DNA of 64,000 nt from IMG/VR virus record IMGVR_UViG_3300026549_000040, positions 1 through 64,000 of that record. The stretch is one strand, 5' to 3'. This DNA comes from a virus. Lineage: Duplodnaviria > Caudoviricetes. Below are positions 5,552-46,684 of the stretch, one piece after another. The number at the start of each line of letters is the position of its first letter. Position 1 is the first letter of the stretch. A program made the translations under genes and the position numbers. Below the pieces are notes generated by a model. The model was not told where the DNA came from, did no database searches, and worked only from the letters and a program-made list of their open reading frames with translations.

Positions 5552-6262
5552 GTGTATAATATAGATATGGAATATATAAAGAAGAATTGTTATTTATCAG
5601 ATAACTGTAAGTTAAAAGAGTGTAATTATGTAAATGAAAATGATATGTGTATTAGATTTTTTAAGATAGATTTTCTATTGAACAAATCATTGTTATCTGA
5701 TAATCATAAAAAAGGAATACGATTAATATTAGACCAAGATGGTACAGACAAGTTAGAGTATGAGCAATTAAGTAAGATACAGGATAAAATAAGACCCTGG
5801 GTAAGACGAGGTAATAATTTATATTTGTGTTCTAATATACCTGGAAATGGTAAAACAAGTTGGGCTATAAAGTTATTAAAAGCATATATACTCAGTATAT
5901 GGCCTGAGTCTGAACTATCATGCAAAGCTTTATTCGTTAACGTACCTAAGTTCTTGATAGAATTAAAATCTAATATTACGAAAAAAAGTGAATATATTGA
6001 TTATATAAATGAAAATGTATTAAATGCTGATATAGTTGTATGGGACGATATAGCAACTAAATTAGTAACTGAGTTTGAACATGAACATCTATTAAGTTTA
6101 ATTGATAATAGGATGTTTAACAATAAGTCTAATATATTCACAAGTAATATAACACCTCATAATTTATCTGCAGTAATAGGTGATAGACTAGCAAGTAGAA
6201 TTAATTCAACCACTATTATTGAATTTAAGGGTAAAGATAAGAGAGGAGTTGATATATATTGA
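5552..6262 (+). CDS. dnaC: DnaC/IstB-like helicase loader ATPase
   Basis: Walker A PGNGKT; Walker B VVWDD; IFTSN, DRLASR, GKDKR. Confidence 0.85.
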   Translation: MYNIDMEYIKKNCYLSDNCKLKECNYVNENDMCIRFFKIDFLLNKSLLSDNHKKGIRLILDQDGTDKLEYEQLSKIQDKIRPWVRRGNNLYLCSNIPGNGKTSWAIKLLKAYILSIWPESELSCKALFVNVPKFLIELKSNITKKSEYIDYINENVLNADIVVWDDIATKLVTEFEHEHLLSLIDNRMFNNKSNIFTSNITPHNLSAVIGDRLASRINSTTIIEFKGKDKRGVDIY

Positions 6263-7527
6263 TTCAGCTGCAAGTTCTTAATTATATACTCAAAACTAAA
6301 GATAGTTCTCTTTTGTTAGTTAATAACATCAATAAAGAGTTCTTCTCAGATTATACTAATGAGTATGAGTATATTATTAATCATTTAAAAACTTATGGCA
6401 ATATACCTGATGAAACATCATTTTTATCTAAGTTTCCAAATTTTGATTTAATTGAAGTTAATGAGTCTCCATCATATCTTATTGATAAACTATATGAAGA
6501 TAAGAATACAAGGTCTTTGGCTTCTATATTCAATGAGATTAAAGATAATCTTATGTCTAATAACTTAGACAAAGCCATGGATATCTATTTGAATTCAACT
6601 GAAACTATGTTGAAAGCAAGGCATATAGATTCAGTCGATATATTAAGAAATACAGATAGATATGAAGCTTATTTAGAGCGATGTGATAACTTTGATAAAT
6701 ATTATGTACGAACAGGATTTAAGGAATTAGATGACATCATAGGTGGTTGGGATAGAGAAGAAGAATTAGCAACTATAGTTGCTAGATCTAATCAAGGAAA
6801 ATCTTGGGTATTATTTAAATGTGCAGTAGCAGCAGTAGAACAGGGATTAAGAGTTGGTTTATACTCAGGTGAGATGAGTGAAAGAAAAGTTGGGTATAGA
6901 GTAGATACTTTAATTTCAAATATTTCTAACAGTGCAATTATTAAAGGTGACAGAAGTGTACAGAACGTATATAAGAAGTATTTAGATGATCTGCCAAATA
7001 GATATACAGGATGCTTAAAGGTTTTAACTCCTAATATGATAGATGGACCAGCAGGTGTAAATTCTCTTAGAGCTTTTATCGAGAGAGATAATTTAGATAT
7101 ATTATTTATAGATCAACATTCATTACTTGAAGATGATAGACATGCTAGAGCACCTTTTGAAAAAGCTGCAAATATATCAAAAGATCTTAAGAATTTACAG
7201 ATGCTAAAAAAGATTCCAATAGTATCTGTATCTCAGCAGAATAGAAATTCAACAGAAAATGGTGTTGGGTTAGAGCATGTAGCTCAGTCAGATAGAATTG
7301 CACAAGATAGTACTATTGTTTTATTCTTTGAACAAAAGGACGGAATAATGACTATGCACCTTGTTAAGTCTAGGGATTCAGTTAATATGAAAGATTTGAA
7401 ATATAATATAAATCTTAATACTGGTACATTTATTTATATTCCAGAGGATGATAATGCAGTTAATGGGGAAGGTGTAGAAGATTTAAGAAAAACTTTTGAA
7501 GAAGAATTAGAGGAAGATGTATTTTAA
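6259..7527 (+). CDS. dnaB: DnaB-like replicative helicase
   Basis: TGFKELDDIIGG, ARSNQGKS, SGEM, FIDQ, VSQQNR, SDRIAQDS, KSR. Confidence 0.9.
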   Translation: MIQLQVLNYILKTKDSSLLLVNNINKEFFSDYTNEYEYIINHLKTYGNIPDETSFLSKFPNFDLIEVNESPSYLIDKLYEDKNTRSLASIFNEIKDNLMSNNLDKAMDIYLNSTETMLKARHIDSVDILRNTDRYEAYLERCDNFDKYYVRTGFKELDDIIGGWDREEELATIVARSNQGKSWVLFKCAVAAVEQGLRVGLYSGEMSERKVGYRVDTLISNISNSAIIKGDRSVQNVYKKYLDDLPNRYTGCLKVLTPNMIDGPAGVNSLRAFIERDNLDILFIDQHSLLEDDRHARAPFEKAANISKDLKNLQMLKKIPIVSVSQQNRNSTENGVGLEHVAQSDRIAQDSTIVLFFEQKDGIMTMHLVKSRDSVNMKDLKYNINLNTGTFIYIPEDDNAVNGEGVEDLRKTFEEELEEDVF

Positions 7528-13558: not shown

Positions 13559-14194
13559 ATGAAGGTAGTTGAAATTTTTAACAGTATTGAAGGTGAAGGA
13601 AAAAGAGTGGGTAAACCTACAACATTTATAAGGTTGTATGGGTGCAACTTAAGATGTTCCTACTGTGATACACCCTACGGATATTCAGGAGGGGATTTTA
13701 TAAATATGTCAGTACAGGATATATTGGGAGTTGTGGCTGACATAGGTTGTAATAGTATAACAGTTACAGGAGGAGAACCTTTATATCACGAAGGTATTTC
13801 AACACTATTAGAAGCTTTGATAAACGAAAATTATTTTGTTAACGTAGAAACTAATGGGTCTATAGTACCAACTGTTAGGGCAAGTAATATATTCTATACT
13901 GTAGATTATAAAACTAAATCAAGTGGCATGGAATATATGATGAATGATGAAGTATTTAATTCCCTAAATCGTAAAGATGTCATAAAATGTGTTGTTTCTT
14001 CTGTAGAGGAAATGAACCATTGTTATGAAAAACTAAATAATATAGATGTTGATAATAAATACTTTAGTCCTGTATTTGGTAATATAAGTGGTGAAGAGAT
14101 AGTAACTCATGTACTAAATAATAAATGGTTTGATTGGAATGTGCAACTTCAGTTACATAAGATTATATGGGATCCAGATAAGAGAGGTGTATGA
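13559..14194 (+). CDS. queE: 7-carboxy-7-deazaguanine synthase (radical SAM)
   Basis: EIFNSIEGEG, FIRLYGCNLRCSYCDT, TGGEP, ETNG, QLHKIIW. Confidence 0.95.
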   Translation: MKVVEIFNSIEGEGKRVGKPTTFIRLYGCNLRCSYCDTPYGYSGGDFINMSVQDILGVVADIGCNSITVTGGEPLYHEGISTLLEALINENYFVNVETNGSIVPTVRASNIFYTVDYKTKSSGMEYMMNDEVFNSLNRKDVIKCVVSSVEEMNHCYEKLNNIDVDNKYFSPVFGNISGEEIVTHVLNNKWFDWNVQLQLHKIIWDPDKRGV

Positions 14195-36287: not shown

Positions 36288-36833
36288 ATGAAAAGAAAAC
36301 TTGCTGTTGACATTGATAATACTATATGGGATCTTGTTTCTTCTTGGATAGAATACTATAACAATAAATATGATGATAATGTTAAAGCATCTAATATAAC
36401 TAAGTATGCTTTTTTTGATCTTACTAAGAAAGCTACTAAAGAAGAAATGTTTGATATACTATGCGTAGATGATTTTTGGTCTACGGTTAATCCATATAGA
36501 TACTCAGAAGAGTACTTAAGAAAATTAAATAAAGAATTTGATTTATATATAGTAACTAGCACTTCATATAAGACCTCAAGGAAAAAGTTTGAAAGATTTT
36601 TTGAATTATTTCCTTTTTTAGATGAGCATCAGCTAATAATAACTCATCATAAAGAGATAATAGATGTAGATATCATAGTGGATGATTGTCCAATAAATCT
36701 AACCAATACTGATCATATAAGATTTTTAATCAACCAATCTTATAATAAATCAGTTAAGGATGAATCTATTATAAGAGTTAATGATTTACGAGAAGTGTAT
36801 TACTATTTTTTTAACACTAATAATAACAAATAA
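36288..36833 (+). CDS. 5'(3')-deoxyribonucleotidase (NT5C, HAD)
   Basis: AVDIDNTI, IVTS, K...DIIVDD.P.NL. Confidence 0.85.
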   Translation: MKRKLAVDIDNTIWDLVSSWIEYYNNKYDDNVKASNITKYAFFDLTKKATKEEMFDILCVDDFWSTVNPYRYSEEYLRKLNKEFDLYIVTSTSYKTSRKKFERFFELFPFLDEHQLIITHHKEIIDVDIIVDDCPINLTNTDHIRFLINQSYNKSVKDESIIRVNDLREVYYYFFNTNNNK

Positions 36834-36849
36834 GAAGGATGATGACAAT

Positions 36850-37050
36850 ATGATTACTATTTATACAACAGAGACTTGCCCAAAATGTAAAATACTTAAA
36901 AAGAAATTATCTTCTAAAGGTGTGGACTTTGAAGAGATATGGGATGTAGACGTATTAAAAAGTCTGGATATATTTGAAGTACCTGTACTTGAGGTAGATG
37001 GAAAATATTTAGAATTTAGTGAAGCCAATGAATGGGTAAATAATCTGTAA
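36850..37050 (+). CDS. nrdH: NrdH/glutaredoxin-like redoxin
   Basis: IYTTETCPKC, VPVLEVDG. Confidence 0.85.
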   Translation: MITIYTTETCPKCKILKKKLSSKGVDFEEIWDVDVLKSLDIFEVPVLEVDGKYLEFSEANEWVNNL

Positions 37051-37064
37051 AGGGGTAAATAGTA

Positions 37065-38978
37065 ATGCTGATAAATTTAAAACTAAACAAGAATTTTACA
37101 ACTGCTTTCAATAGATTGTCAAATGAATATGGTACTGACATAGTTGAATTAAATGGTTTTTCAGAAGAACAGTTAAGTTGGACAGACTTTCTTGATAATT
37201 TTGTATCTAAAGAAACAGTAGCAGATGCAACTATTGATGGGAATGCAAATATTGGTACTAAAGATATATGCTCTTTAGAAGCTGAGATGAGTAAACCTCA
37301 TAGTAAGCTAATTGCTTTTAATAAGATCTATCAAGAGCTAAACCAGGAATTTGGATTTAAAGTTGCTAATGATTGGATTCAAAATGAATGGGATGGTCAT
37401 TTTTATCTACATGATGCAGCTAGTTCTACTTATAAACCTTATTGTTATGCATATGATCTGGAAAGATTGGTAAATGAGGGTCTTTACTTTATAGATACTT
37501 TTAATAACCAGCCACCAAAGCACCTTGTAACGTATACAGATTTTGTGGGTGAGTTTGTTAGTTGGGCTAGTAATAGAACAAGTGGTGCTTGTGGATTACC
37601 AAGCTTTCTTATATATTCTTTTTATTTCTGGAGGAAAGATATTGAGAATAACTACTTTGTATCTAGTCCCGAAGCATATAGGGACCAGGAATTTCAGAGA
37701 ATTATATATAAATTAAATCAACCATATCTTCGTGTTAATCAATCTGCTTTTACTAACTTTAGTATTTTTGATAGATCATACTTAGAGTCAATTTTTGGTG
37801 GAAAAGAATTTCCAGATGGTACTTTTATTATTGATTATATTGATGATATATTAGAGTATCAGAAATCTTTTATGGAAGTATGTAGTAAGATAAGATCAGA
37901 TAATATGATGACTTTTCCTGTTTTAACTTTTTCTTTATTGAGAACTAAAGAAGGAAAATTTGTTGATGAAGATTTTGCTAAATGGTGCTGCAGACATAAT
38001 ATGAAATGGGCAGATAGTAATTTCTTTATTAGTGACGATATTACAAGTCTAAGCAACTGCTGCAGGTTACTGTCAGATGTAAAAGAACTTGGTTACTTTA
38101 ATTCTATTGGTGGTACATCATTAGAAGTAGGCAGTATTAAAGTTAATACCATTAATCTTGCTAGGCTGTCCTATGAAAATAAGAAAGCTGATTATCTTGA
38201 TGCGCTAAAAGAAAAAGTATATCTGTGTCTACAGACACTTCATATAATTAGAAATATAATTTCTAAAAACGTACAAAGAGGTCTATTACCAAACTATAGT
38301 CATAAACTTATTAATATGGATTCTCAATATTCAACCATAGGTATTATTGGAATATATGAAACTTTACAAAAATATAGAATGGTAAAGAAGGATGAATTAG
38401 GTTATACTTATTATACGGATTCTGGAATTGAATTTGCAAAATCTATCTTCAATGCTATAAATGAAGTTAAGCAGAAGTTTATAGAAGAGAATGATGTAAC
38501 TTATTCCATAAATATAGAACAGATTCCGGGGGAAAGAGCTGCTTCAATACTTATGCAAAAAGATAAGTTCTTCTTCCCGAAAGAAAAGTATGAACTACCT
38601 TTATATGGTAATCAGTGGATTCCACTTGGTATTAAGACTTCCTTAGATGAGAAGATTAAACTCAGTGCTATACTTGATAAGGCTTGTAATGGTGGATCTA
38701 TTGCTCATATTAATATAGAATCTCCATTTAATAATTTTGAAACTGCCTGGAAGATGCTTAATAAAGTAGCTGATTCTGGAGTTGTATACTTTGCTTTCTG
38801 CACAAGAATAAGTGCATGTAAGCATAATCATGGTTTTTATGGGGATGTTTGTCCTGTATGTGGGGAACCTGTAGAAACAACTTATCAAAGAATAGTTGGA
38901 TTTCTAACTCCATGCAAAACATATAGTAAAGAAAGAAAAGAAGAGTTTAAGCTTAGAGATTGGTTTGATGTGAACTAA
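37065..38978 (+). CDS. nrdD: anaerobic class III ribonucleoside-triphosphate reductase (no ATP cone)
   Basis: YLHD...PYC, SNCCRL, EQIPGE, C...H...CPVC, glycyl loop YQRIVGFL. Confidence 0.92.
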   Translation: MLINLKLNKNFTTAFNRLSNEYGTDIVELNGFSEEQLSWTDFLDNFVSKETVADATIDGNANIGTKDICSLEAEMSKPHSKLIAFNKIYQELNQEFGFKVANDWIQNEWDGHFYLHDAASSTYKPYCYAYDLERLVNEGLYFIDTFNNQPPKHLVTYTDFVGEFVSWASNRTSGACGLPSFLIYSFYFWRKDIENNYFVSSPEAYRDQEFQRIIYKLNQPYLRVNQSAFTNFSIFDRSYLESIFGGKEFPDGTFIIDYIDDILEYQKSFMEVCSKIRSDNMMTFPVLTFSLLRTKEGKFVDEDFAKWCCRHNMKWADSNFFISDDITSLSNCCRLLSDVKELGYFNSIGGTSLEVGSIKVNTINLARLSYENKKADYLDALKEKVYLCLQTLHIIRNIISKNVQRGLLPNYSHKLINMDSQYSTIGIIGIYETLQKYRMVKKDELGYTYYTDSGIEFAKSIFNAINEVKQKFIEENDVTYSINIEQIPGERAASILMQKDKFFFPKEKYELPLYGNQWIPLGIKTSLDEKIKLSAILDKACNGGSIAHINIESPFNNFETAWKMLNKVADSGVVYFAFCTRISACKHNHGFYGDVCPVCGEPVETTYQRIVGFLTPCKTYSKERKEEFKLRDWFDVN

Positions 38979-39595
38979 TGAAGATACTAAATATAAAAGT
39001 AGAAGATTTTACAAATTACAAGAAACCAGCTATGTTTATTGGGATGGGTACCTGCAATTTTAAATGTTGTAATGAAGCAGGTATTCCTCATGAAATTTGT
39101 CAGAATTATTTACTTAAAAATGATTATATTGAGTTAGAACCTAAAACTATAGTTGGTAATTATTTAAGTAATACAATAAGTGAGTCAGTAGTTATAGGTG
39201 GGTTAGAACCTTTTGATGATTTTATGAATTTACTCGATTTAGTAGATGAGTTTAGAAGGAATACTTCTGATGATATAGTTATATATACAGGTTATTATCC
39301 ACATGAAATAACTACATACTTATTATATTTATCTGAATATGATAATATAATATTGAAGTTTGGTAGGTTTGTACCAAATAATAAACCTCATAAAGACAAA
39401 ATATTAGGAGTTAATTTAGCAAGTGATAATCAATATGGTGCTAAATTAATAAAAGGGTGTAAAGACATATTAAAAGCAATACATGATAATGATGGGTACT
39501 GCCCATGTAAAATAAATAAAGATGAAACAACTAAATGCTGCTGTGAAGATTTTGTTAAAACAAAAGAATGTATTTGTGGTGCATTTGAAAAATAA
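38978..39595 (+). CDS. nrdG: NrdG radical-SAM activase fused to a C-terminal ferredoxin:thioredoxin-reductase-like domain
   Basis: C.FKC......CQN, GGLEP, IYTGY, KFGRF, LASDNQ; tail GYCPC...KCCC...ECICG.F. Confidence 0.85.
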   Translation: MKILNIKVEDFTNYKKPAMFIGMGTCNFKCCNEAGIPHEICQNYLLKNDYIELEPKTIVGNYLSNTISESVVIGGLEPFDDFMNLLDLVDEFRRNTSDDIVIYTGYYPHEITTYLLYLSEYDNIILKFGRFVPNNKPHKDKILGVNLASDNQYGAKLIKGCKDILKAIHDNDGYCPCKINKDETTKCCCEDFVKTKECICGAFEK

Positions 39596-39605
39596 AGGAA
39601 TTTAA

Positions 39606-40541
39606 ATGTTATATGATTTTATTAATGAAGCATTTATCTTAGAGAGTGAAGAACTCAATGAAGATAAAATGGTTAAGTACGATGGAGAATTATCTCCTAA
39701 GTTTGGCTGGTGTGCTATTTACATAGGTGGTCCGGCTTCTGGTAAAGGAACTGCTACTAAGTTTCTTTCTAGATTAGAAGGTGATTATTTTAACGTAGAT
39801 AATCTTAAAGAAATAGAAAGAATGTGGCAGATAACAGATCCTAAGACTGGTAAGCCACACTCAGATAATTTCAAAACACCTTCCGAGATTGTACCAAAAC
39901 TTGATAAAAACGGTGATCCTGTTATAAGTAAAGAAAGAAAAAGCCCGTGGACTGGTAAGAAAACAGGTGGTGAAGAAGTATATTATGATAAATATCGTAA
40001 TATGGGAAATAGTGATTTCGTATCAGAACTTCATGGAGAGATGAAACCTCTTGGTAAGAAATGGCAAAATTCTATGCTTAATAATCCAGAAAATGAAACT
40101 CGTAATAAGGATAGGTTACCGAATCTTATATTTGATATAACGGGTGATGATCCAAGGAAGATTATGAAGATTATCGATCCATTAAAAGCACAGGGTTACA
40201 AAATTGCTATTATTTGGATGCTTACTACACCAGAAAAGGCTATATTAAATAATTTCAAGAGAGATAGAAGTGTAGACGTTAGACAGGTATTACTACCTAA
40301 ACATAAAGGTGTTATGGACGCTGTAGAAGATATGTTCTCTTCTGATAAGATTAAAAAAGTTGATGAATTCTGGGTTATCGATACAGATGCAGGTGTAGAT
40401 CCATTCAAGGATCCTGTAGGTTATCATAATGCACAGAATGTTTATCATATTCCAATTATGCAAGATGGAATTAAAACAATTTCATATATAGCTGATAGAA
40501 TAGCTACTAATAGAGAACAATTGAATACTTATGGCTTTTAA
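39606..40541 (+). CDS. P-loop kinase (zeta-toxin/AAA_33-like)
   Basis: IGGPASGKG, FNVD, LIFDITG, A...N..R.RSV. Confidence 0.65.
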   Translation: MLYDFINEAFILESEELNEDKMVKYDGELSPKFGWCAIYIGGPASGKGTATKFLSRLEGDYFNVDNLKEIERMWQITDPKTGKPHSDNFKTPSEIVPKLDKNGDPVISKERKSPWTGKKTGGEEVYYDKYRNMGNSDFVSELHGEMKPLGKKWQNSMLNNPENETRNKDRLPNLIFDITGDDPRKIMKIIDPLKAQGYKIAIIWMLTTPEKAILNNFKRDRSVDVRQVLLPKHKGVMDAVEDMFSSDKIKKVDEFWVIDTDAGVDPFKDPVGYHNAQNVYHIPIMQDGIKTISYIADRIATNREQLNTYGF

Positions 40542-41590: not shown

Positions 41591-41664
41591 TGCGGGATCG
41601 TCAAGTGGCAAGACAACGGGCTCATTACCCGTTACCGTAGGTTCGAATCCTACTCCCGCATCCA
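41591..41664 (+). tRNA. tRNA-Met(CAT), initiator-like
   Basis: Cloverleaf; GGG/CCC anticodon stem, U1-A72, encoded CCA. Confidence 0.85.
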
Positions 41665-41668
41665 ATAT

Positions 41669-41750
41669 GGGGATGCGATGGGCGTTCGACTCGGCTTAAA
41701 CCCAAAGTGAACTGTCGAGGACATCGGTTCGAATCCGATCATCTCCACCA
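41669..41750 (+). ncRNA. ssrA: mini-tmRNA: tRNA-like domain only, no mRNA-like domain
   Basis: GGGGATG...TTCGAC 5' end, G3.U70, P2a CTCGGC/GTCGAG closing an 18-nt loop, GAC connector, T-arm, CATCTCC-ACCA. Confidence 0.8.
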
Positions 41751-41764
41751 TATTAATAAATTAA

Positions 41765-41851
41765 GCGGCTGTGTCGGAACTGGCAGACGACTCGGACTTA
41801 AAATCCGATGCTCCTGTGAGCGTGTGGGTTCAAATCCCACCAGCCGCACCA
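41765..41851 (+). tRNA. tRNA-Leu(TAA)
   Basis: Cloverleaf with long variable arm, CCA. Confidence 0.95.
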
Positions 41852-41858
41852 AAGGAAC

Positions 41859-41913
41859 AGACACAAACAGCAAATATGATGTTCTTAATAGGGTAAAAAG
41901 ATATTGTGTCTAG
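41859..41913 (+). ncRNA. AACAGCAA stem-bulge element 1 (candidate Y-RNA-like)
   Basis: AGACAC-aAACAGCA-AATAT...ATATT-GTGTCT-AG. Confidence 0.55.
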
Positions 41914-41938
41914 GTAAGTTTTATAGGAGGAAGTAAGC

Positions 41939-43465
41939 ATGGGATTTGTTGAAAACTTAAAAGTAGAACAGAATAACGATAACGAAATGAATCTAACGGA
42001 AAACTTAGCAGTTGCATATAAAACAACTGGTGAGTATTTGTTAGATTTTAATTTTAAGGTAACGAATTTAAGACATTCAAGCTATGAAGATGTAGTTACT
42101 AACTTTAAGAAAGTTTACTACAGTGATAGCACAACAGCATTGAAGTATTTATTCTATGTTGGTGACATTAGATATGGTTTAGGTGAAAGACATATCTTCA
42201 AATCTTGTTTTAAGTGGCTTGCAGAAACTCATGGAGATAAAGTAAAAGGTCTTCTGTTTCTTATTCCAGAATATTCAAGATGGGATGTTCTTGTATCATT
42301 AATTAATTGTGATAATAAGAAGATACAGAAAGAAGTTACTAATATCATCCGTATCCAATTAAATAAAGATAAATATGGCATGCTTAATAACAGATCTATT
42401 TCATTACTTTCTAAGTGGCTGCCATCAGAAAATGCTTCTTCTAAAGAAACAAAAGAGTTAGCAAAGATTGTAAGAACCAATCTTAAAATGACTCCTAAGA
42501 AGTATAGAAAAACTTTGAGTACATTAAGAGCTTATCTTGATGTGGTAGAAACTAAGATGAGTGCAAAAGATTGGGATAAGATAGATTATAGTTCTGTTCC
42601 ATCAATTGCTAATATAAACTACTCAAATGCTTTTATGAAGCATGACCCACAGAGAAGAACACAATACTTAACTGATCTTAAAGAAGGTAAAACTAAGATT
42701 AATGCAGGTGTACTTCAGCCACATCAGATTGTATATAGATATGTTAATGGTCATGATGGGTGGTATAATGATGTTTCAATCAAGTATGATGAAACTTTAG
42801 AAGAACTATGGAAATCATTGCCAGATGTTTGTACAGAATCTACTTTAGTAGTTAGAGATGGTTCTGGTTCAATGTATACTTCTGTTAGTGGAAGAATAAG
42901 AGCTGTGGATGTTGCAACAGCACTTGCTATTTACTGTGCAGAACATACAATGGGTGAATTTAACGATAAGTTTATTACTTTTTCTTCTCGTCCTAAGCTT
43001 GTAGATTTATCTTATTGTGAATCTTTAGCAGATAAGATTGATAAAGCTTATCTTGAAACAGAAATGTCAAATACAAATATTTTTAAAACTATGATGTTGG
43101 TTTTAGATACTGCTGTTAAATATAAGATGAAACAGGAAGAACTTCCACGTAATATTCTTATTATTTCAGATATGCAGTTTGATGGTTCAAGATTTAATCT
43201 ATCAAAATCTTTATTCGATGAAATAAAGGACGAATTTAAGAAGTATGGATATAAAATGCCAAGAATTTGTTTCTGGAATTTAGATCCATATGATTCAGAA
43301 ACTATTCCTCTTAAGCAAAATGATAATGGTTTAATCCTATGTAGTGGATTTTCAATAAATAATTTGAATATGTTTATGAGTGGAGAGATTGATCCTCTTA
43401 AAGTCTTATTAGACATATTAAATTCAAAACGGTATGATGCTGTTGAAGCAGCAATAGATAGATAA
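41939..43465 (+). CDS. DUF2828-family protein (helical domain + vWA, Ro60/TROVE-like)
   Basis: LTEN.A.A...TG...LD, DIR.GLGER, KWLPSE, IDYSSVPS, MIDAS DGSGSM, ISDMQFD, FWNL, SGFS. Confidence 0.85.
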   Translation: MGFVENLKVEQNNDNEMNLTENLAVAYKTTGEYLLDFNFKVTNLRHSSYEDVVTNFKKVYYSDSTTALKYLFYVGDIRYGLGERHIFKSCFKWLAETHGDKVKGLLFLIPEYSRWDVLVSLINCDNKKIQKEVTNIIRIQLNKDKYGMLNNRSISLLSKWLPSENASSKETKELAKIVRTNLKMTPKKYRKTLSTLRAYLDVVETKMSAKDWDKIDYSSVPSIANINYSNAFMKHDPQRRTQYLTDLKEGKTKINAGVLQPHQIVYRYVNGHDGWYNDVSIKYDETLEELWKSLPDVCTESTLVVRDGSGSMYTSVSGRIRAVDVATALAIYCAEHTMGEFNDKFITFSSRPKLVDLSYCESLADKIDKAYLETEMSNTNIFKTMMLVLDTAVKYKMKQEELPRNILIISDMQFDGSRFNLSKSLFDEIKDEFKKYGYKMPRICFWNLDPYDSETIPLKQNDNGLILCSGFSINNLNMFMSGEIDPLKVLLDILNSKRYDAVEAAIDR

Positions 43466-43469
43466 AATT

Positions 43470-43535
43470 TAGACACGAACAGCAATTTGCAAGATCAGTT
43501 TTATTAGCTTCAGAAATAATAAAAATTGTGTCTAG
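43470..43535 (+). ncRNA. AACAGCAA stem-bulge element 2
   Basis: TAGACAC-gAACAGC-AATTT...AAATT-GTGTCTA-G. Confidence 0.55.
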
Positions 43536-43555
43536 TTCATACTTACCTCCTTTTT

Positions 43556-43638
43556 TAGGCCCTAACAGCAATCAATATGTTTTATAAAAGCTTGTTACTA
43601 TGTTTATTTAGAGAAAATACTTTTATTATAGGGCCTAG
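43556..43638 (+). ncRNA. AACAGCAA stem-bulge element 3
   Basis: TAGGCCCT-AACAGCAAT...AGGGCCTA-G; compensatory stem changes relative to elements 1 and 2. Confidence 0.55.
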
Positions 43639-43645
43639 CCTATAT

Positions 43646-43721
43646 GACCCATTAGCTCAGTCGGCAGAGCACCTGACTTTTAATCAGGGTGTCCGGAGTT
43701 CGAATCTCCGATGGGCCACCA
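43646..43721 (+). tRNA. tRNA-Lys(TTT)
   Basis: Cloverleaf, CCA; A2-C71 mismatch. Confidence 0.9.
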
Positions 43722-43725
43722 AAGA

Positions 43726-43802
43726 GGACCATTAGCTCAGTAGGTTAGAGCATCCGGCTCATAACCGGCAGGTCGTAGGTTCAAGTCCTACATGGTCCAC
43801 CA
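43726..43802 (+). tRNA. tRNA-Ile2(CAT), lysidine type
   Basis: GGACCAT acceptor and body resemble Firmicute Ile2 tRNA. Confidence 0.8.
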
Positions 43803-44001
43803 AATATAACTTTTATATGATGAATATTAAAATATAACTTTTGTATGATGGATACTAAAAAACCTTATGTACTTTTAGAAGATATTGTAGGATTTTATGA
43901 AAAGTTAAATAAACTTAAAAAAAGTCATTATCCTATAAGATATATAAAGTATATAATGAAAAAAGATTTTGATAAACTTGATATAAAGTTTTTATAAATA
44001 T

Positions 44002-44077
44002 GGAGCTTGTCCTCGACGGTATTGAGGGCTGGTCTTATAAACCAGTACACGAAGTTCAACTCTTCGGGGCTCTACCA
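44002..44077 (+). tRNA. tRNA-Ile(TAT)
   Basis: CTGGT-CT-TAT-AA-ACCAG arm, T-arm, ACCA. Confidence 0.8.
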
Positions 44078-44083
44078 AAATAT

Positions 44084-44268
44084 AACTTCATGGCAATCCA
44101 ACATAAGTAGTTCTAGAACAATGCTTATGAGATAGCCGCCTGAAGCAACAGGTCGACTTTAATAAAGGGACGGAGTCGATACAACAATACTCACCGTGGG
44201 TTGATCACCACAAGAATTCCGGAAATATAGAGAAAGAATCCGTAGAACGAGCTTGAAGCCATGAAGTT
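44084..44268 (+). ncRNA. unclassified ~185-nt structured RNA
   Basis: 11-bp closing stem AACTTCATGGC/GCCATGAAGTT with several internal hairpins. Confidence 0.5.
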
Positions 44269-44275
44269 TACTTAT

Positions 44276-44349
44276 GTGATATTAGTGTAAGGGTAGCATA
44301 TCTGCCTTCCAAGCAGTTGGTATGAGTTCAAATCTCATATATCACTCCA
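44276..44349 (+). tRNA. tRNA-Gly(TCC)
   Basis: Cloverleaf, U73, CCA. Confidence 0.9.
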
Positions 44350-44351
44350 TA

Positions 44352-44555
44352 ATTAAGGGAACGGAAAACAGCGGATGCCCATAAAGAGAGAACCTGTCCG
44401 AAAGGTTCTGGAGTGTAGTGGCTACTCGGCTACCCTTAATAACTGATTTTATCCTGAATTATGTTACGGGCGCCACGGTGTCAGTAATCCGCCATAGTGG
44501 GGTATACCAAATGACGACTCCCCAGGGGTCCGGACATAAATAAGATAGAATTGGT
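44352..44555 (+). ncRNA. two adjacent unclassified structured RNAs (44352-44440, 44442-44555)
   Basis: Closing stems ATTAAGGG/CCCTTAAT and CTGATTTTATC/GATAGAATTGG; GC-rich internal hairpins. Confidence 0.4.
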
Positions 44556-44757
44556 AAAGTCCAGGTCAGCTCAAGACTATAAAAGGAAAAAAATAAGGCT
44601 CTTTGGCTGAACGAGGGCCACATACATGGGTTGTGACCCTTACGCTCATAGGTTTATTCCATACCAGTGAGAACATGATTTAAAAGGAATACGTTATCCA
44701 GTTTGCGTAAAATTATGGTTTGTAGTTATCCTTATACTGGAGAAAAACTACTTATAT

Positions 44758-44833
44758 GCTCCCGTAGTCTAACGGATAGGACACGTGGTTTTCATCCACG
44801 TAATGCGGAGTTCAACTCTCCCCGGGAGTACCA
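44758..44833 (+). tRNA. tRNA-Glu(TTC)
   Basis: Cloverleaf, CCA. Confidence 0.9.
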
Positions 44834-44921
44834 TATACGAGGTCGCCGCAAAAGTAATGATCTCATCTCCCAAGTCGTAGTAAGATTTGTGCGGTGAAAG
44901 CTTGGGAATATCATATTATAT

Positions 44922-44998
44922 GTCCGTGTAGCCGAATTGGCATAGGCATCTGACTTAGGATCAGAATTTTGGGGGTTCGAGTCCTCTCACGGACACCA
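44922..44998 (+). tRNA. tRNA-Leu(TAG), short variable loop
   Basis: Cloverleaf, A73, CCA. Confidence 0.85.
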
Positions 44999-45000
44999 AT

Positions 45001-45087
45001 CGAGGGTTGTCCGAGTTGGTTTAAGGTGCCAGTCTTGAAAACTGGTGGACGATAGTCCCCTGGGTTCGAATCCCAGACCCTCGGCCA
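45001..45087 (+). tRNA. tRNA-Ser(TGA)
   Basis: Long variable arm, G73, CCA. Confidence 0.92.
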
Positions 45088-45088
45088 T

Positions 45089-45173
45089 CGGAGAGTAGCG
45101 TAGTGGCGAACGCAGCGGACTGTAAATCCGTGACATAGAAACATCGGTGGTTCGAGTCCACCCTCTCCGACCA
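45089..45173 (+). tRNA. tRNA-Tyr(GTA)
   Basis: Cloverleaf, C1-G72, A73, CCA. Confidence 0.9.
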
Positions 45174-45189
45174 TTATAATTTACAATTA

Positions 45190-45264
45190 GGTCTGGTCGT
45201 TCAATGGATAGGATAGTGGATTGTCGCTCCACAGATCAGAGTTCAATTCTCTGTCAGACCGCCA
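45190..45264 (+). tRNA. tRNA-Asp(GTC) copy 1
   Basis: Cloverleaf, G73, CCA. Confidence 0.9.
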
Positions 45265-45276
45265 AAACAGTTGTAA

Positions 45277-45472
45277 GTCTGTAAGAGTATTCGGTTCAGC
45301 CTTTACCGCTCGTAAAACTTTCCGTGATGACAATCGTTAAGGTCAAGTGGTGGTAAGCACACAGCCAATGTAAAGTGTGGTTAAAGGTTAGAGAAATGCA
45401 GAAAGAGACGGCGATAACCGTTCAGACGTATCCTGAAAGCATAGTAAATAATCAACGATGCAAGATGCAGAT
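45277..45472 (+). ncRNA. unclassified ~195-nt structured RNA
   Basis: GTCTGTA/TGCAGAT closing stem; AGCCTTTA/TAAAGGTT arm; three small hairpins. Confidence 0.4.
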
Positions 45473-45487
45473 CTCGTAAATATTTAT

Positions 45488-45564
45488 GGCTCCATAGTTC
45501 AGTTGGTAGAGCGGCAGGTTGAAGCCCTGCGCTTGCGATAGTTCAATTCTATCTCGTTCCACCA
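45488..45564 (+). tRNA. tRNA-Phe(GAA) with disrupted acceptor stem (pseudo-tRNA or decoy)
   Basis: D, anticodon and T arms intact; GGCTCCA/TCGTTCC has three mismatches. Confidence 0.7.
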
Positions 45565-45571
45565 CAAATAT

Positions 45572-45648
45572 CTGGGTATGGCTCAGTTTGGTAGGGCATC
45601 TGATTTGGGTTCAGAAGGTCGCAGGTTCAAATCCTGCTACCCAGACCA
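45572..45648 (+). tRNA. tRNA-Pro(TGG) copy 1
   Basis: Cloverleaf, CCA. Confidence 0.92.
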
Positions 45649-45767
45649 TATAAAGCGCAGAATGGCTACCAGTCAACCGATTGCAAGGTTTTACTGAAAT
45701 ACAGTTTCGTGCGCTATATAAATAGATAGCCCCGTATGTGATGTAGGACTGGCGCATTACAAAATTT

Positions 45768-45842
45768 GGTCTATTGGTATAATGGTAATTATATTCGGTT
45801 GTCAGCCGAAAGATACGTGTTCAATTCACGTATAGACCGCCA
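45768..45842 (+). tRNA. tRNA-Asp(GTC) copy 2
   Basis: Cloverleaf, G73, CCA. Confidence 0.88.
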
Positions 45843-45968
45843 AACAAAGCACGCTTTATAGCCCAAGCAGACCCACCCTTACTCTGGCAAGCTATAAAGA
45901 AGACGATATAATAACATGTCACACAAGTAGTGTAACGGGAGGGGTGACAACTTTTATGGAAATTATGT

Positions 45969-46044
45969 GGGTTGGTAGCTTAAATAGTGAAGCGGTCGCC
46001 TGTTAAGCGACAGAGTGTGGGTGCAAGTCCTACCCTTCCCGCCA
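45969..46044 (+). tRNA. tRNA-Asn(GTT), atypical
   Basis: Two U-U pairs in acceptor, T-loop TGCAAGT, G73, CCA. Confidence 0.8.
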
Positions 46045-46050
46045 TAATGT

Positions 46051-46127
46051 GTAGCCTTAGTTTAATTGGTAAAACGCCAGTCTCCAAAACTGGAAGATAT
46101 GGGTTCGAGTCCCAATAGGTTATGCCA
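46051..46127 (+). tRNA. tRNA-Trp(CCA)
   Basis: CCAGT-CT-CCA-AA-ACTGG, G73, CCA. Confidence 0.88.
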
Positions 46128-46132
46128 ATAGT

Positions 46133-46346
46133 TCCTATATGCGCAATAGGATGGTGGAAAAGAACGACGAAGCAATAAGCGAGTGTAATGGTTCAAATCC
46201 AAAGTCGGAAGTAGGGTAGAAACGCAAGTAGTAGCCCAAAAGTCCTGTTCGTTATTGTGGATAGTAAACGTATCCCAATCAACTACCATAAGCGTAATAA
46301 GCCTATGCCAGTGGTATGCGTAACATGTTACGAAAAAGGTTGATTA
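46133..46346 (+). ncRNA. unclassified structured RNA with T-loop-like motif
   Basis: ATGGTGG/CTACCAT stem, GGTTCAAATCC at 46190-46200, several hairpins. Confidence 0.4.
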
Positions 46347-46359
46347 TTTAATATTTCGT

Positions 46360-46433
46360 TGCCCCGTTGTGTAGTGGTAGCACAACAGACTTTGACTCTG
46401 TTAGTCCTGGTTCGAACCCAGGCGGGGTAGCCA
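46360..46433 (+). tRNA. tRNA-Gln(TTG)
   Basis: Cloverleaf, U1-A72, CCA. Confidence 0.92.
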
Positions 46434-46505
46434 AAATACATATAGATCTCTTATTCGTTATTTCTTTTCCTCCTTTCATGTAGTGAATAAGGGATCTTTG
46501 TATTT
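46434..46505 (+). ncRNA. hairpin with anti-Shine-Dalgarno loop
   Basis: AGATCTCTTATTC/GAATAAGGGATCT stem; loop contains TTTTCCTCCTTT. Confidence 0.5.
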
Positions 46506-46509
46506 ATAT

Positions 46510-46594
46510 GGAGAAGTGGCGTAATGGTATCGCAGTGCCCTGCTAAGGCATCCTACCTATGGTAGTCCGAGTTCGATTCTCGGCTTCTCCGCCA
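46510..46594 (+). tRNA. tRNA-Ser(GCT)
   Basis: Long variable arm, G73, CCA. Confidence 0.92.
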
Positions 46595-46607
46595 ATAAAG
46601 TATTTGT

Positions 46608-46684
46608 CCGGGTATAGCTCAATTTGGCAGAGTGCATGGTTTGGGACCATGATGTTGCAGGTTCAAATCCTGCTACTCGGACCA
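46608..46684 (+). tRNA. tRNA-Pro(TGG) copy 2
   Basis: Cloverleaf, CCA. Confidence 0.92.

What the first reader, a model, noticed from the sequence alone, without database searches (positions are those of the whole stretch)
36850..39595. Self-contained redoxin-driven anaerobic RNR: NrdH + NrdD + NrdG fused to an FTR-like Fe-S domain
Seen: after the NrdG end motif LASDNQ the ORF continues ~45 aa with GYCPC...KCCC...ECICGAF, matching the CPC/CPC/CHC pattern of the ferredoxin:thioredoxin reductase catalytic chain. A CPKC redoxin precedes NrdD, which has an adjacent Cys pair (SNCCRL). Known: some class III RNRs use thioredoxin/NrdH rather than formate, with a ferredoxin:disulfide reductase in Methanosarcina. 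Inference: the phage taps host reduced ferredoxin through an activase-reductase fusion (Fd to FTR to NrdH to NrdD). I do not recall such a fusion being characterised.
Basis: partly seen in the sequence, partly recalled or inferred. Interest (0 to 1): 0.7.

Follow-up and report, generated by a model that had tools for sequence, protein, structure and literature searches.

The report
RNR activase fused to mini-FTR domain
A 145-kb cattle-gut phage carries an oxygen-sensitive DNA-precursor enzyme set in which the activating enzyme has fused to a tiny iron-sulfur "ferredoxin:disulfide reductase" module; this module is usually a separate 60-residue gene in related phages and Clostridia and probably lets ferredoxin recharge the small redox protein that feeds the enzyme.

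Summary
Window 36850-39595 encodes three genes:
- a 66-aa CPKC glutaredoxin-like protein;
- a Thermotoga-type (NrdDh, "NCCR") class III ribonucleotide reductase;
- a 205-aa NrdG whose last ~50 residues carry six cysteines (CPC-x9-CCC-x8-CIC).

The window's own tail misses Pfam FeThRed_B. Even so, 16 of 26 close relatives hit it. A profile of 24 tails and stand-alone homologues finds only FTR/FDR chains in the PDB (M. acetivorans FDR 4TPU, E 6.5e-5), and all 12 Foldseek hits of the folded tail are FTR/FDR.

The fusion is genuine: independent assemblies are intact. It is also rare and arose at least three times. The usual state is a separate 58-77-aa gene straight after nrdG.

This mini-FTR family (≥1,555 clusters at 50% identity) has two main contexts. 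One is phage nrdH-nrdD-nrdG operons (72 of 80 viral loci). The other, in Clostridia, is directly beside a canonical thioredoxin gene (19 of 31 non-nrd loci).

That supports a chain ferredoxin → mini-FTR → redoxin → NrdD, as shown for Methanosarcina barkeri. No step is tested biochemically. This phage's copy has Ile where relatives have His. I rate it a new variant of a known kind.

The parts
36850..37050 (+). 66-aa glutaredoxin-like redoxin ('NrdH-like', YruB-type). CPKC at 36877-36888; cis-Pro motif VPV at 36979-36987.
   Evidence: Pfam Glutaredoxin 1e-08. NCBIfam YruB 43 bits and NrdH 30 bits, both below their cut-offs. C10, P11, C13 and P45 are invariant in 26 phage homologues. It is the only Grx-like gene in the 145-kb genome.
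37065..38978 (+). Class III ribonucleotide reductase NrdD, subclass NrdDh (Thermotoga type). Cys127 (PYCYAY, 37437-37454); CC pair (SNCCRL, 38052-38069); NSIGG finger-loop Ile348; Zn site 38817-38861; glycyl radical RIVGF 38889-38903.
   Evidence: PF13597 2e-82. NF006127 545.9 bits against a cut-off of 545. T. maritima NrdD 4COI/4U3E at E 2.4e-151, with motifs aligned. Motif definitions come from PMC4493059. Coordinates.
38978..39433 (+). Radical-SAM activase core of NrdG (residues 1-152). Non-canonical cluster motif C26-x3-C30-x10-C41 (39053-39106); GGLEP (39197-39211).
   Evidence: Pfam Fer4_12 2.7e-05; TIGR02491 NrdG 22.6 bits, below cut-off. C26, C30 and C41 are invariant in 62 sequences. 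AF2 pLDDT 95, with top Foldseek hits QueE 5TGS and PFL-AE 3CB8 at prob ≥0.99.
39434..39595 (+). C-terminal mini-FTR/FDR-like domain fused to NrdG (residues 153-205). Six-Cys core CPC-x9-CCC-x8-CIC at 39500-39577; stop codon at 39593-39595.
   Evidence: Six Cys plus N and F are invariant in 24 tails and stand-alone homologues. The profile hits only FTR/FDR chains in the PDB. The tail-only AF2 model (pLDDT 87.6) gives 12 of 12 Foldseek hits to FTR/FDR. 16 of 26 relatives hit PF02943.

Best explanation
The last ~50 residues of this phage's NrdG are a minimal ferredoxin:disulfide reductase (FDR/FTR-catalytic-like) module. Four of its six invariant cysteines are expected to hold a [4Fe-4S] cluster, and the other two (C177, C200) to form the adjacent redox-active disulfide. 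The module is proposed to take electrons from host reduced ferredoxin and reduce the phage's 66-aa CPKC glutaredoxin-like protein. That protein would then re-reduce the cysteines of the Thermotoga-type (NrdDh) class III reductase after each turnover. dNTP synthesis would thus run on ferredoxin rather than on formate or NADPH. The N-terminal part is the ordinary radical-SAM activase that installs the glycyl radical.

Shown here: domain homology, conservation of the six Cys, gene linkage, and the fused/split/absent distribution.

Inferred: cluster binding, ferredoxin as donor, the redoxin as substrate, and formate independence.

The fusion itself is most likely a lineage-specific merger of two neighbouring, translationally coupled genes, not a mechanistic requirement.
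For: (1) Homology. 16 of 26 relatives hit Pfam FeThRed_B, best 7.6e-9. The profile of 24 modules hits only FTR/FDR chains in the PDB, with the three Cys motifs aligned: 4TPU M. acetivorans FDR at 6.5e-5, 7PWE at 0.018, and plant/cyanobacterial FTR chains at about 1.5. All 12 Foldseek hits of the tail model are FTR/FDR, with TMq 0.52-0.64.

(2) All six Cys are invariant, including the two that in FTR are not cluster ligands but form the active disulfide. 143 of the top 150 family representatives keep the full pattern.

(3) Linkage to the RNR operon. Of 80 viral loci picked by the module alone, 72 carry nrdH, nrdD or nrdG within 6 kb, and 62 have nrdG.

(4) Independent link to redoxins. Of 31 bacterial (mostly Clostridia) loci without nrd genes, 19 have a canonical WCGPC thioredoxin gene directly adjacent. 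An example is L222: mini-FTR at 6001-6198, Trx at 6214-6516, PF00085 2.6e-29. 7PWE is a natural glutaredoxin-FDR fusion.

(5) NrdD is the SCCR-type NrdDh enzyme. For this type, N. bacilliformis NrdD uses thioredoxin, and T. maritima NrdD needs an unidentified >10-kDa protein factor (PMC4493059).

(6) Precedent. An FDR plus an NrdH-like protein reduce the M. barkeri class III RNR (Wei et al. 2015, cited in PMC6262447 and PMC9176816).

(7) The gene is intact and under purifying selection.
Against: - No biochemical data exist for any member of this mini family.
- The window's own tail falls below Pfam detection. It has Ile in place of the His/Tyr of CHC/CYC, plus a 4-residue loop deletion. Ile occurs in 1 of 143 representatives, although the 76%-identical P0002 shares it.
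- The redoxin gene is present equally in phages with and without the module. Two ≥95%-complete phage genomes with nrdH-D-G lack the module altogether. It is therefore dispensable, and the redoxin must also accept host reductants.
- The module most often lies directly after nrdG, and AF2 packs it tightly on the activase core (pTM 0.92). Both fit a role in activation equally well.
- The module is only about 60 aa, half of a canonical FTR catalytic chain, and has no variable subunit or rubredoxin domain.
Confidence: 0.62

Rival explanations
1. The FDR-like module serves the activation step rather than turnover. Docked on NrdD together with the activase, it either keeps NrdD cysteines (the C-terminal Zn-site cysteines or the CC loop) reduced so that the glycyl radical can be installed, or it passes ferredoxin electrons to the radical-SAM cluster of NrdG in place of flavodoxin.
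For: - The module lies immediately downstream of nrdG and is translationally coupled to it (TAAATG, ATGA overlaps) in 114 of 178 loci.
- It fused to NrdG at least 3 separate times.
- AF2 models the tail as one compact body with the activase core (pLDDT 95, pTM 0.92).
- Thioredoxin is known to be needed for activation of E. coli class III RNR (Padovani et al. 2001, cited in PMC4390871).
- This NrdG clade has an unusual CX3CX10C cluster motif.
Against: - The same module stands alone next to thioredoxin genes with no NrdG nearby.
- It also occurs in phages with no nrd genes nearby.
- In phage c-st it follows nrdD, not nrdG.
- It fuses just as readily to ThyX, dUTPase, DUF1653 and HAD neighbours.
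- Conservation of all six Cys points to disulfide chemistry rather than a simple one-electron relay.
Confidence: 0.22
2. In this particular phage lineage the tail is a degenerate, non-catalytic remnant. It would be a structural metal-binding (Zn or Fe-S) cap on NrdG that has lost disulfide-reductase activity.
For: - CIC instead of CHC, a 4-residue deletion, and CCC instead of CPC/CMC.
- No Pfam hit for the window's own tail.
- Close relatives (76-81% identical, 166 aa; also L008) have lost the tail altogether.
Against: - All six Cys, N and F are retained in the window, P0001, P0002 and L001.
- Independent assemblies show only synonymous or conservative changes.
- Functional FDRs (4TPU, 7PWE) also lack the His and have Tyr.
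- The tail is modelled with high confidence.
Confidence: 0.12
3. The fusion is an assembly or sequencing artefact that hides a stop codon or frameshift between nrdG and a separate FTR-like gene.
For: In most relatives the two parts are separate genes.
Against: - Contigs of other runs and studies cover the whole gene without any indel or stop.
- More than 15 independent protein clusters are fused in the same compact way.
- The fused lineage has lost the ~10 residues around the ancestral stop/start, which a single error cannot produce.
Confidence: 0.01

Closest known systems
Methanosarcina barkeri class III RNR (NrdD3) with NrdH-like redoxin and ferredoxin:disulfide reductase (Wei et al. 2015, Biochemistry 54:7019; cited in PMC6262447, PMC9176816)
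   Same: Same proposed logic: ferredoxin → FTR-like [4Fe-4S] disulfide reductase → small glutaredoxin-like protein → class III RNR. The FDR family is the closest solved relative of the tail (4TPU).
   Different: Here NrdD is the bacterial/phage NrdDh ('NrdD2', SCCR-type) enzyme, not NrdD3. The reductase is a ~55-65-aa minimal module without a rubredoxin domain. It is encoded inside the nrd operon and, in this phage, fused to the activase. The carrier is a phage. Nothing has been tested biochemically.
M. acetivorans FDR (PDB 4TPU) and Desulfotalea psychrophila glutaredoxin-FDR fusion (PDB 7PWE)
   Same: The three Cys motifs align. These are the best sequence-profile hit (E 6.5e-5) and the best TM-scores (0.64 and 0.59). 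Like the window's copy, both lack the His of CHC (they have Tyr). 7PWE shows that FDR modules fuse to Grx-type partners.
   Different: They are 173-196-aa proteins with extra domains (rubredoxin, Grx). Their CPC-to-CxC spacing is longer. They are not linked to NrdG.
Plant/cyanobacterial ferredoxin:thioredoxin reductase catalytic subunit (PDB 1DJ7, 2PU9; Pfam PF02943)
   Same: Same six-Cys signature and fold core. The top Foldseek hit is 1DJ7_A.
   Different: FTR is a heterodimer with a variable subunit and has ~110 aa with CPC-x16-CPC-x8-CHC. The sequence-profile match is only E ~1.5.
Thermotoga maritima NrdD (4COI/4U3E) and N. bacilliformis NrdD (thioredoxin-dependent)
   Same: The window NrdD matches TmNrdD at E 2.4e-151 over the full length. 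It shares the Cys-Cys-Arg loop, NSIGG Ile, PYC, the Zn site and the Gly motif.
   Different: The window has NCCR rather than SCCR. It lacks the 14-residue insert after the motif. Its NrdG belongs to a different clade from the Thermotoga/c-st NrdG, with no BLASTP similarity.
Clostridium phage c-st genes CST074-CST077 (NC_007581)
   Same: Glutaredoxin, NrdG, NrdD and a 63-aa protein. The GenBank note already calls the last one 'weakly similar to ferredoxin-thioredoxin reductase catalytic chain'. The tail matches it at E 9e-09.
   Different: Gene order is Grx-NrdG-NrdD-FTR. The module is separate and follows NrdD. Its NrdG is the TIGR02826 type with CX5CX2C.

Membership tests
FTR catalytic chain / FDR (Pfam PF02943 FeThRed_B) | Match to the family HMM above the gathering score | tested here: not met
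   The window's own tail and whole protein give no hit. However, 16 of 26 aligned relatives do hit, best 7.6e-9, as do stand-alone homologues: L222 at 23.3 bits against a cut-off of 22. Membership therefore rests on transitive homology.
FTR catalytic chain / FDR (Pfam PF02943 FeThRed_B) | Six cysteines in three CxC motifs (four cluster ligands plus two forming the redox-active disulfide) | tested here: met
   C175/177, C187/189 and C198/200 are present. All six are invariant in 24 sequences and align to the CPC/CPC/C[HY]C motifs of 4TPU, 7PWE and 2PVD.
FTR catalytic chain / FDR (Pfam PF02943 FeThRed_B) | His (FTR) or Tyr (FDR) between the last two cysteines | tested here: not met
   The window has Ile (CIC). 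Among 143 family representatives the counts are 123 His, 5 Tyr and 1 Ile.
FTR catalytic chain / FDR (Pfam PF02943 FeThRed_B) | FTR-like fold | tested here: met
   Tail-only AF2 model has pLDDT 87.6. All 12 Foldseek PDB hits with E ≤ 10 are FTR/FDR chains, TMq 0.52-0.64. E-values are weak (best 0.29) because the domain is so small.
FTR catalytic chain / FDR (Pfam PF02943 FeThRed_B) | [4Fe-4S] binding and ferredoxin-dependent disulfide reduction | not testable with these tools
   Needs anaerobic reconstitution, spectroscopy and enzyme assays.
NrdG (class III RNR activase, radical SAM) | CX3CX2C radical-SAM cluster motif | tested here: not met
   The motif is C26-x3-C30-x10-C41-Q-N. These three Cys are invariant in 62 homologues. 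This looks like an insertion between the second and third Cys rather than loss of the site.
NrdG (class III RNR activase, radical SAM) | Family HMM, SAM-binding GGEP-type motif, radical-SAM fold, and pairing with nrdD | tested here: met
   TIGR02491 gives only 22.6 bits against a cut-off of 126; Pfam Fer4_12 is above its cut-off. GGLEP is conserved. Foldseek top hits are QueE and PFL-AE at prob ≥0.99. The start codon overlaps the nrdD stop.
Class III RNR, NrdDh / 'NrdD2' (redoxin-dependent type) | NrdD HMMs, glycyl-radical motif, conserved active-site Cys, C-terminal Zn site | tested here: met
   PF13597 2e-82; NF006127 545.9 against 545. RIVGF, PYC127 and C585/H588/C596/C599 align to TmNrdD.
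Class III RNR, NrdDh / 'NrdD2' (redoxin-dependent type) | SCCR motif and a hydrophobic residue at the finger-loop tip (PMC4493059) | tested here: met
   NCCR (an S-to-N variant) at residues 331-334, and NSIGG with Ile348, align to Tm 328-SCCR-331 and Ile359.
Class III RNR, NrdDh / 'NrdD2' (redoxin-dependent type) | Turnover driven by a thiol redoxin, not formate | not testable with these tools
   Shown only for N. bacilliformis NrdD. T. maritima NrdD needs an unidentified protein factor.
NrdH-redoxin | NrdH family HMM and signature motifs (CVQC, WSGFRP; recalled from the literature) | tested here: not met
   TIGR02194 gives 30.4 bits against a cut-off of 85.75. The best model is YruB-type Grx-like, also below its cut-off. 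The sequence has CPKC and no WSGFRP. It is a minimal Trx-fold redoxin in the NrdH position, not a bona fide NrdH.

The most novel reading that the evidence does not exclude
The NrdG-FDR fusion, and the coupled NrdG + mini-FTR pairs, form a two-cluster protein that acts as a single ferredoxin entry point for both electron needs of a class III RNR. One need is the one-electron reduction of the radical-SAM cluster for glycyl-radical installation. The other is the two-electron re-reduction of the redoxin or of NrdD cysteines at every turnover. If so, phages would make anaerobic dNTP synthesis independent of host flavodoxin, NADPH-thioredoxin reductase and formate.
Probability: 0.12. Interest if true: 0.8.

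Novelty: new variant of a known kind. Interest (0 to 1): 0.6.

Why it matters
The physiological reductant of the Thermotoga-type (NrdDh) class III reductases is still open. T. maritima NrdD needs an unidentified protein of more than 10 kDa, and E. coli thioredoxin does not substitute (PMC4493059).

The operon architecture found here is a Grx-like redoxin, NrdDh, NrdG and a ~60-residue FDR-like module. It recurs in hundreds of gut phages and in many Clostridia genome or MAG contigs, at least some of them phage-like. This names concrete candidates that can be expressed and assayed.

The work also uncovers a large, uncharacterised family of minimal FTR-like proteins: at least 1,555 clusters at 50% identity, with no NCBIfam model. 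Their second habitat, beside thioredoxin genes in gut Clostridia, suggests an unrecognised ferredoxin-linked thioredoxin reduction route in these anaerobes.

For phage biology, it shows phages wiring dNTP supply to the host's low-potential ferredoxin pool.

Tried and rejected
- Complex prediction of NrdG-FTR (A3) with the redoxin (A5) returned 'no answer' (score 0.07, mark 0.32). This is neither support nor evidence against binding.
- A PDB profile search with the full-length alignment A1 found no FTR or NrdG chain, only chance hits. It worked only with the tail-only profile.
- Foldseek of the full-length model sees only the radical-SAM part.
- Pfam and NCBIfam on the window's own tail gave nothing. 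NCBIfam has no model for the stand-alone modules either.
- The search for related loci on genome contigs with A2 failed because the alignment was too diverse. I repeated it with the tighter A4.
- Wei et al. 2014/2015 and Prakash et al. 2018 are not held, so their content is cited only through papers that cite them.
- Literature searches for an NrdG-FTR fusion or a phage FTR found nothing. This is weak evidence of novelty, because subscription journals are not covered.
- I looked for a phage-encoded ferredoxin by motif only and found none. That is a regex screen, not an HMM search.
- I considered stop-codon read-through or recoding as the link between nrdG and the module in same-frame split loci. 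I rejected it for most: the stop is TAA and is followed at once by ATG. TAG recoding does apply to a few relatives.
- No model coordinates were available, so the cluster-to-cluster distance could not be measured.
Full report
**1. What is in the sequence**

The stretch lies in a complete 144,875-base virus record. All its genes are on the + strand, it has 18 tRNA genes and about 30% G+C. The DNA is held by bovine-gut metagenome runs.

Four genes are packed head to tail:
- An NT5C 5'-nucleotidase at 36288-36833.
- A 66-aa glutaredoxin-like protein at 36850-37050, with CPKC at residues 10-13.
- NrdD at 37065-38978 (637 aa).
- NrdG at 38978-39595 (205 aa). Its ATG shares a base with the NrdD stop (TAATG).

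After the conserved LASDNQ, where unfused relatives end within a few residues, the NrdG frame continues for 53 residues. These contain CPC-x9-CCC-x8-CIC. Only this ORF in the whole genome has such a six-Cys pattern.

**2. The fusion is real**

Contigs from three other runs were laid on the gene. Two are from a 2025 study of a different habitat label and one is from a bovine-gut RNA library. Two contigs (X3, X4) span the whole gene, and the RNA-library contig covers 39059-39700, which includes the junction. None has an insertion or deletion. The only differences are three synonymous changes and V132L.

More than fifteen protein clusters from other metagenomes, 58-99% identical, are likewise 205-210 aa and fused.

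**3. What the tail is**

Pfam FeThRed_B does not reach the window's own tail. It does match 16 of 26 aligned relatives, best 7.6e-9.

I aligned the window tail, the tail of the fused L001 protein and 22 stand-alone homologues (A2). Six Cys, one Asn and one Phe are invariant.

A profile of A2 searched against all PDB sequences returns seven hits, and all are FTR/FDR proteins:
- M. acetivorans ferredoxin:disulfide reductase 4TPU, E 6.5e-5.
- 7PWE, E 0.018.
- Plant and cyanobacterial FTR catalytic chains, E ~1.5.

In each hit the three CxC motifs are in register.

The tail folded alone has pLDDT 87.6. All 12 Foldseek hits with E ≤ 10 are again FTR/FDR chains: 1DJ7, 2PU9, 7C2B, 4TPU (TMq 0.64) and 7PWE (TMq 0.59). 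The entry title of 7PWE calls it a glutaredoxin/ferredoxin-disulfide-reductase fusion protein of Desulfotalea psychrophila.

The tail is therefore a minimal member of the FTR/FDR superfamily, about half the size of a canonical catalytic chain. The window's copy is atypical. It has Ile where 123 of 143 representatives have His and the solved FDRs have Tyr, plus a 4-residue deletion. The 76%-identical P0002 shares both features.

**4. Fused, split and absent forms**

I fetched 80 viral loci with the NrdG alignment. The operon order is redoxin - NrdD - NrdG.

In most loci a separate 58-77-aa gene with the six-Cys motif follows immediately. It has its own start codon (…TAAATG…, or 1-4-base overlaps), so these are real two-gene arrangements, not read-through.

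The distribution is as follows:
- 53 of the 80 loci carry the motif. This sample is biased towards full-length matches.
- About a quarter have no such gene within 5 kb.
- Two ≥95%-complete phage genomes with the operon lack the module anywhere. A positive control scored 4 of 4.
- Fused genes are rare: 5 of 178 scored loci.
- On an NrdG-core tree the fused state needs at least three origins, even counting only well-supported branches. They are the window + L001, L011, and L062.
- The window's lineage is a compact fusion that has lost the ~10 residues around the old stop and start. The others are simple stop losses.
- The nearest relatives of the window (L008; P0017-19) have no tail at all.

**5. 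What the module travels with**

I ran the reverse test. Of 80 viral loci picked by the module alone, 72 have nrdH, nrdD or nrdG within 6 kb, and 62 have nrdG.

The family is large. It has 1,555 representative clusters at E ≤ 1e-3 and 644 at ≤ 1e-10, mostly proteins of 60-130 aa.

In species-representative bacterial genomes there are 581 hits, mostly Clostridia. Of the best 80:
- 49 sit in the nrd context. Several are nearly identical to viral contigs on the tree, so they are probably prophages or binned phage.
- 31 do not sit in the nrd context. In 19 of these a canonical WCGPC thioredoxin gene lies directly beside the module. An example is L222, with a 13-base gap and flanking glycoside hydrolases and regulators, i.e. 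ordinary chromosome.

This second habitat is independent evidence that the module's partner is a thiol redoxin.

The tiny gene also merges with other neighbours:
- ThyX (L088).
- dUTPase (P0252).
- DUF1653 (L060).
- A HAD phosphatase (P0202).
- An unknown ~100-aa domain.

In the cultured Clostridium phage c-st the order is Grx - NrdG - NrdD - module - dUTPase. The 2005 GenBank note already remarks on a weak similarity to FTR. Fusion to NrdG is therefore weak evidence for direct NrdG-module chemistry.

**6. The reductase and the redoxin**

NrdD matches T. maritima NrdD over its full length (E 2.4e-151). It shares the defining features of subclass NrdDh as set out in PMC4493059:
- the Cys-Cys-Arg loop (NCCR here, SCCR in Thermotoga);
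- Ile at the finger-loop tip (NSIGG);
- PYC;
- the Zn site;
- the glycyl motif.

That paper reports three relevant things. The CC cysteines are essential. T. maritima activity needs a protein factor of more than 10 kDa. N. bacilliformis NrdD (NrdDh3) uses thioredoxin.

The redoxin is the only Grx-like gene of the phage. Its CPxC and cis-Pro are invariant. It fails the NrdH model and lacks the NrdH signature motifs, so it is 'NrdH-like' by position only.

**7. The activase**

The core is a divergent NrdG clade: TIGR02491 scores 22.6 bits against a cut-off of 126. Its cluster motif is the invariant C-x3-C-x10-C-Q-N instead of CX3CX2C.

AF2 with 62 sequences gives pLDDT 95 and pTM 0.92, with the tail at 86-97. 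The tail is thus modelled as part of one compact body. Foldseek finds QueE and PFL-activase for this model.

**8. Mechanism**

Best supported (about 0.6): host reduced ferredoxin → mini-FDR cluster/disulfide → CPKC redoxin → NrdD cysteines. This parallels the M. barkeri NrdD3-NrdH-FDR system (cited). I found no ORF with the clostridial-type Fer4 motif in the phage genome, so any ferredoxin donor would have to come from the host; this was a regex screen only.

Main rival (about 0.2): the module acts in activation, either on NrdD cysteines or on the radical-SAM cluster. Three things favour it: gene position, repeated fusion, and the known thioredoxin requirement for activation of E. coli NrdD.

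A degenerate structural tail in this lineage is possible (about 0.1). An artefact is excluded.

**9. Novelty**

The logic (FDR + Grx-like protein + class III RNR) is published for a methanogen. The phage c-st gene was flagged by similarity in its GenBank record.

Within the searchable literature, the following appear to be new:
- the minimal ~60-aa module as a large phage/Clostridia family;
- its tie to NrdDh-type reductases;
- its alternative pairing with thioredoxin genes;
- its repeated fusion to the activase.

I class it as a new variant of a known kind, of moderate-to-good interest because it makes the NrdDh reductant question directly testable.

Noticed in passing
window 39053-39106 (NrdG residues 26-43); L242:461-988: This NrdG clade has an invariant C-x3-C-x10-C(QN) motif instead of the radical-SAM CX3CX2C (62 sequences). 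The unrelated NrdG of Clostridium phage c-st (TIGR02826 type) has CX5CX2C. The two NrdG clades share no BLASTP similarity although their NrdDs are close.
   Followed up: partly
L013:5891, L040:4846, L041:6445, L026:5606; L040:3852 and L025:5328 (NrdG): Several related phages have in-frame TAG codons inside conserved genes (for example LASDN-TAG where relatives have LASDNQ). Reading TAG through lengthens the longest ORF from 490 to about 654 codons, so these look like TAG-recoded phages. Their FTR-like gene has the longer, more canonical CPC-x15-CPC spacing.
   Followed up: partly
L088:5404-6156; P0252; L060:5814-6221; P0202; P0148/P0156/P0189/P0195/P0208/P0217: The mini-FTR module is also found fused to ThyX (Thy1 8.9e-11), dUTPase, DUF1653, a HAD-type phosphatase and an unannotated ~100-aa C-terminal domain. 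In L088 a class-V aminotransferase (cysteine-desulfurase-like) and a dUTPase lie just upstream.
   Followed up: partly
L222:6001-6516 and 18 further bacterial loci (L210-L240): In gut Clostridia chromosomes, a two-gene unit pairs a 65-66-aa mini-FTR with a canonical WCGPC thioredoxin. This suggests an undescribed ferredoxin-linked thioredoxin reduction route.
   Followed up: partly
L017, L023, L042, L044, L073, L074 (NrdD ORFs of 948-987 aa); L002, L043, L066, L067 (NrdD in two pieces): Many relatives have NrdD genes about 300 aa longer than normal, or interrupted by 1-2 kb. This is likely inteins or intron/homing-endonuclease insertions.
   Followed up: no
window 13559-14194: A QueE-like radical-SAM gene (CNLRCSYC, 211 aa), suggesting a 7-deazaguanine DNA or tRNA modification pathway in this phage.
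   Followed up: no
window 36288-36833 and 39606-40541: The nrd genes are flanked by an NT5C-type 5'(3')-deoxyribonucleotidase (2.5e-22) and by a 311-aa protein with a weak Zeta-toxin/AAA_33 kinase match (1.6e-05). This forms a nucleotide-metabolism block just upstream of the tRNA array (41591-46684).
   Followed up: no
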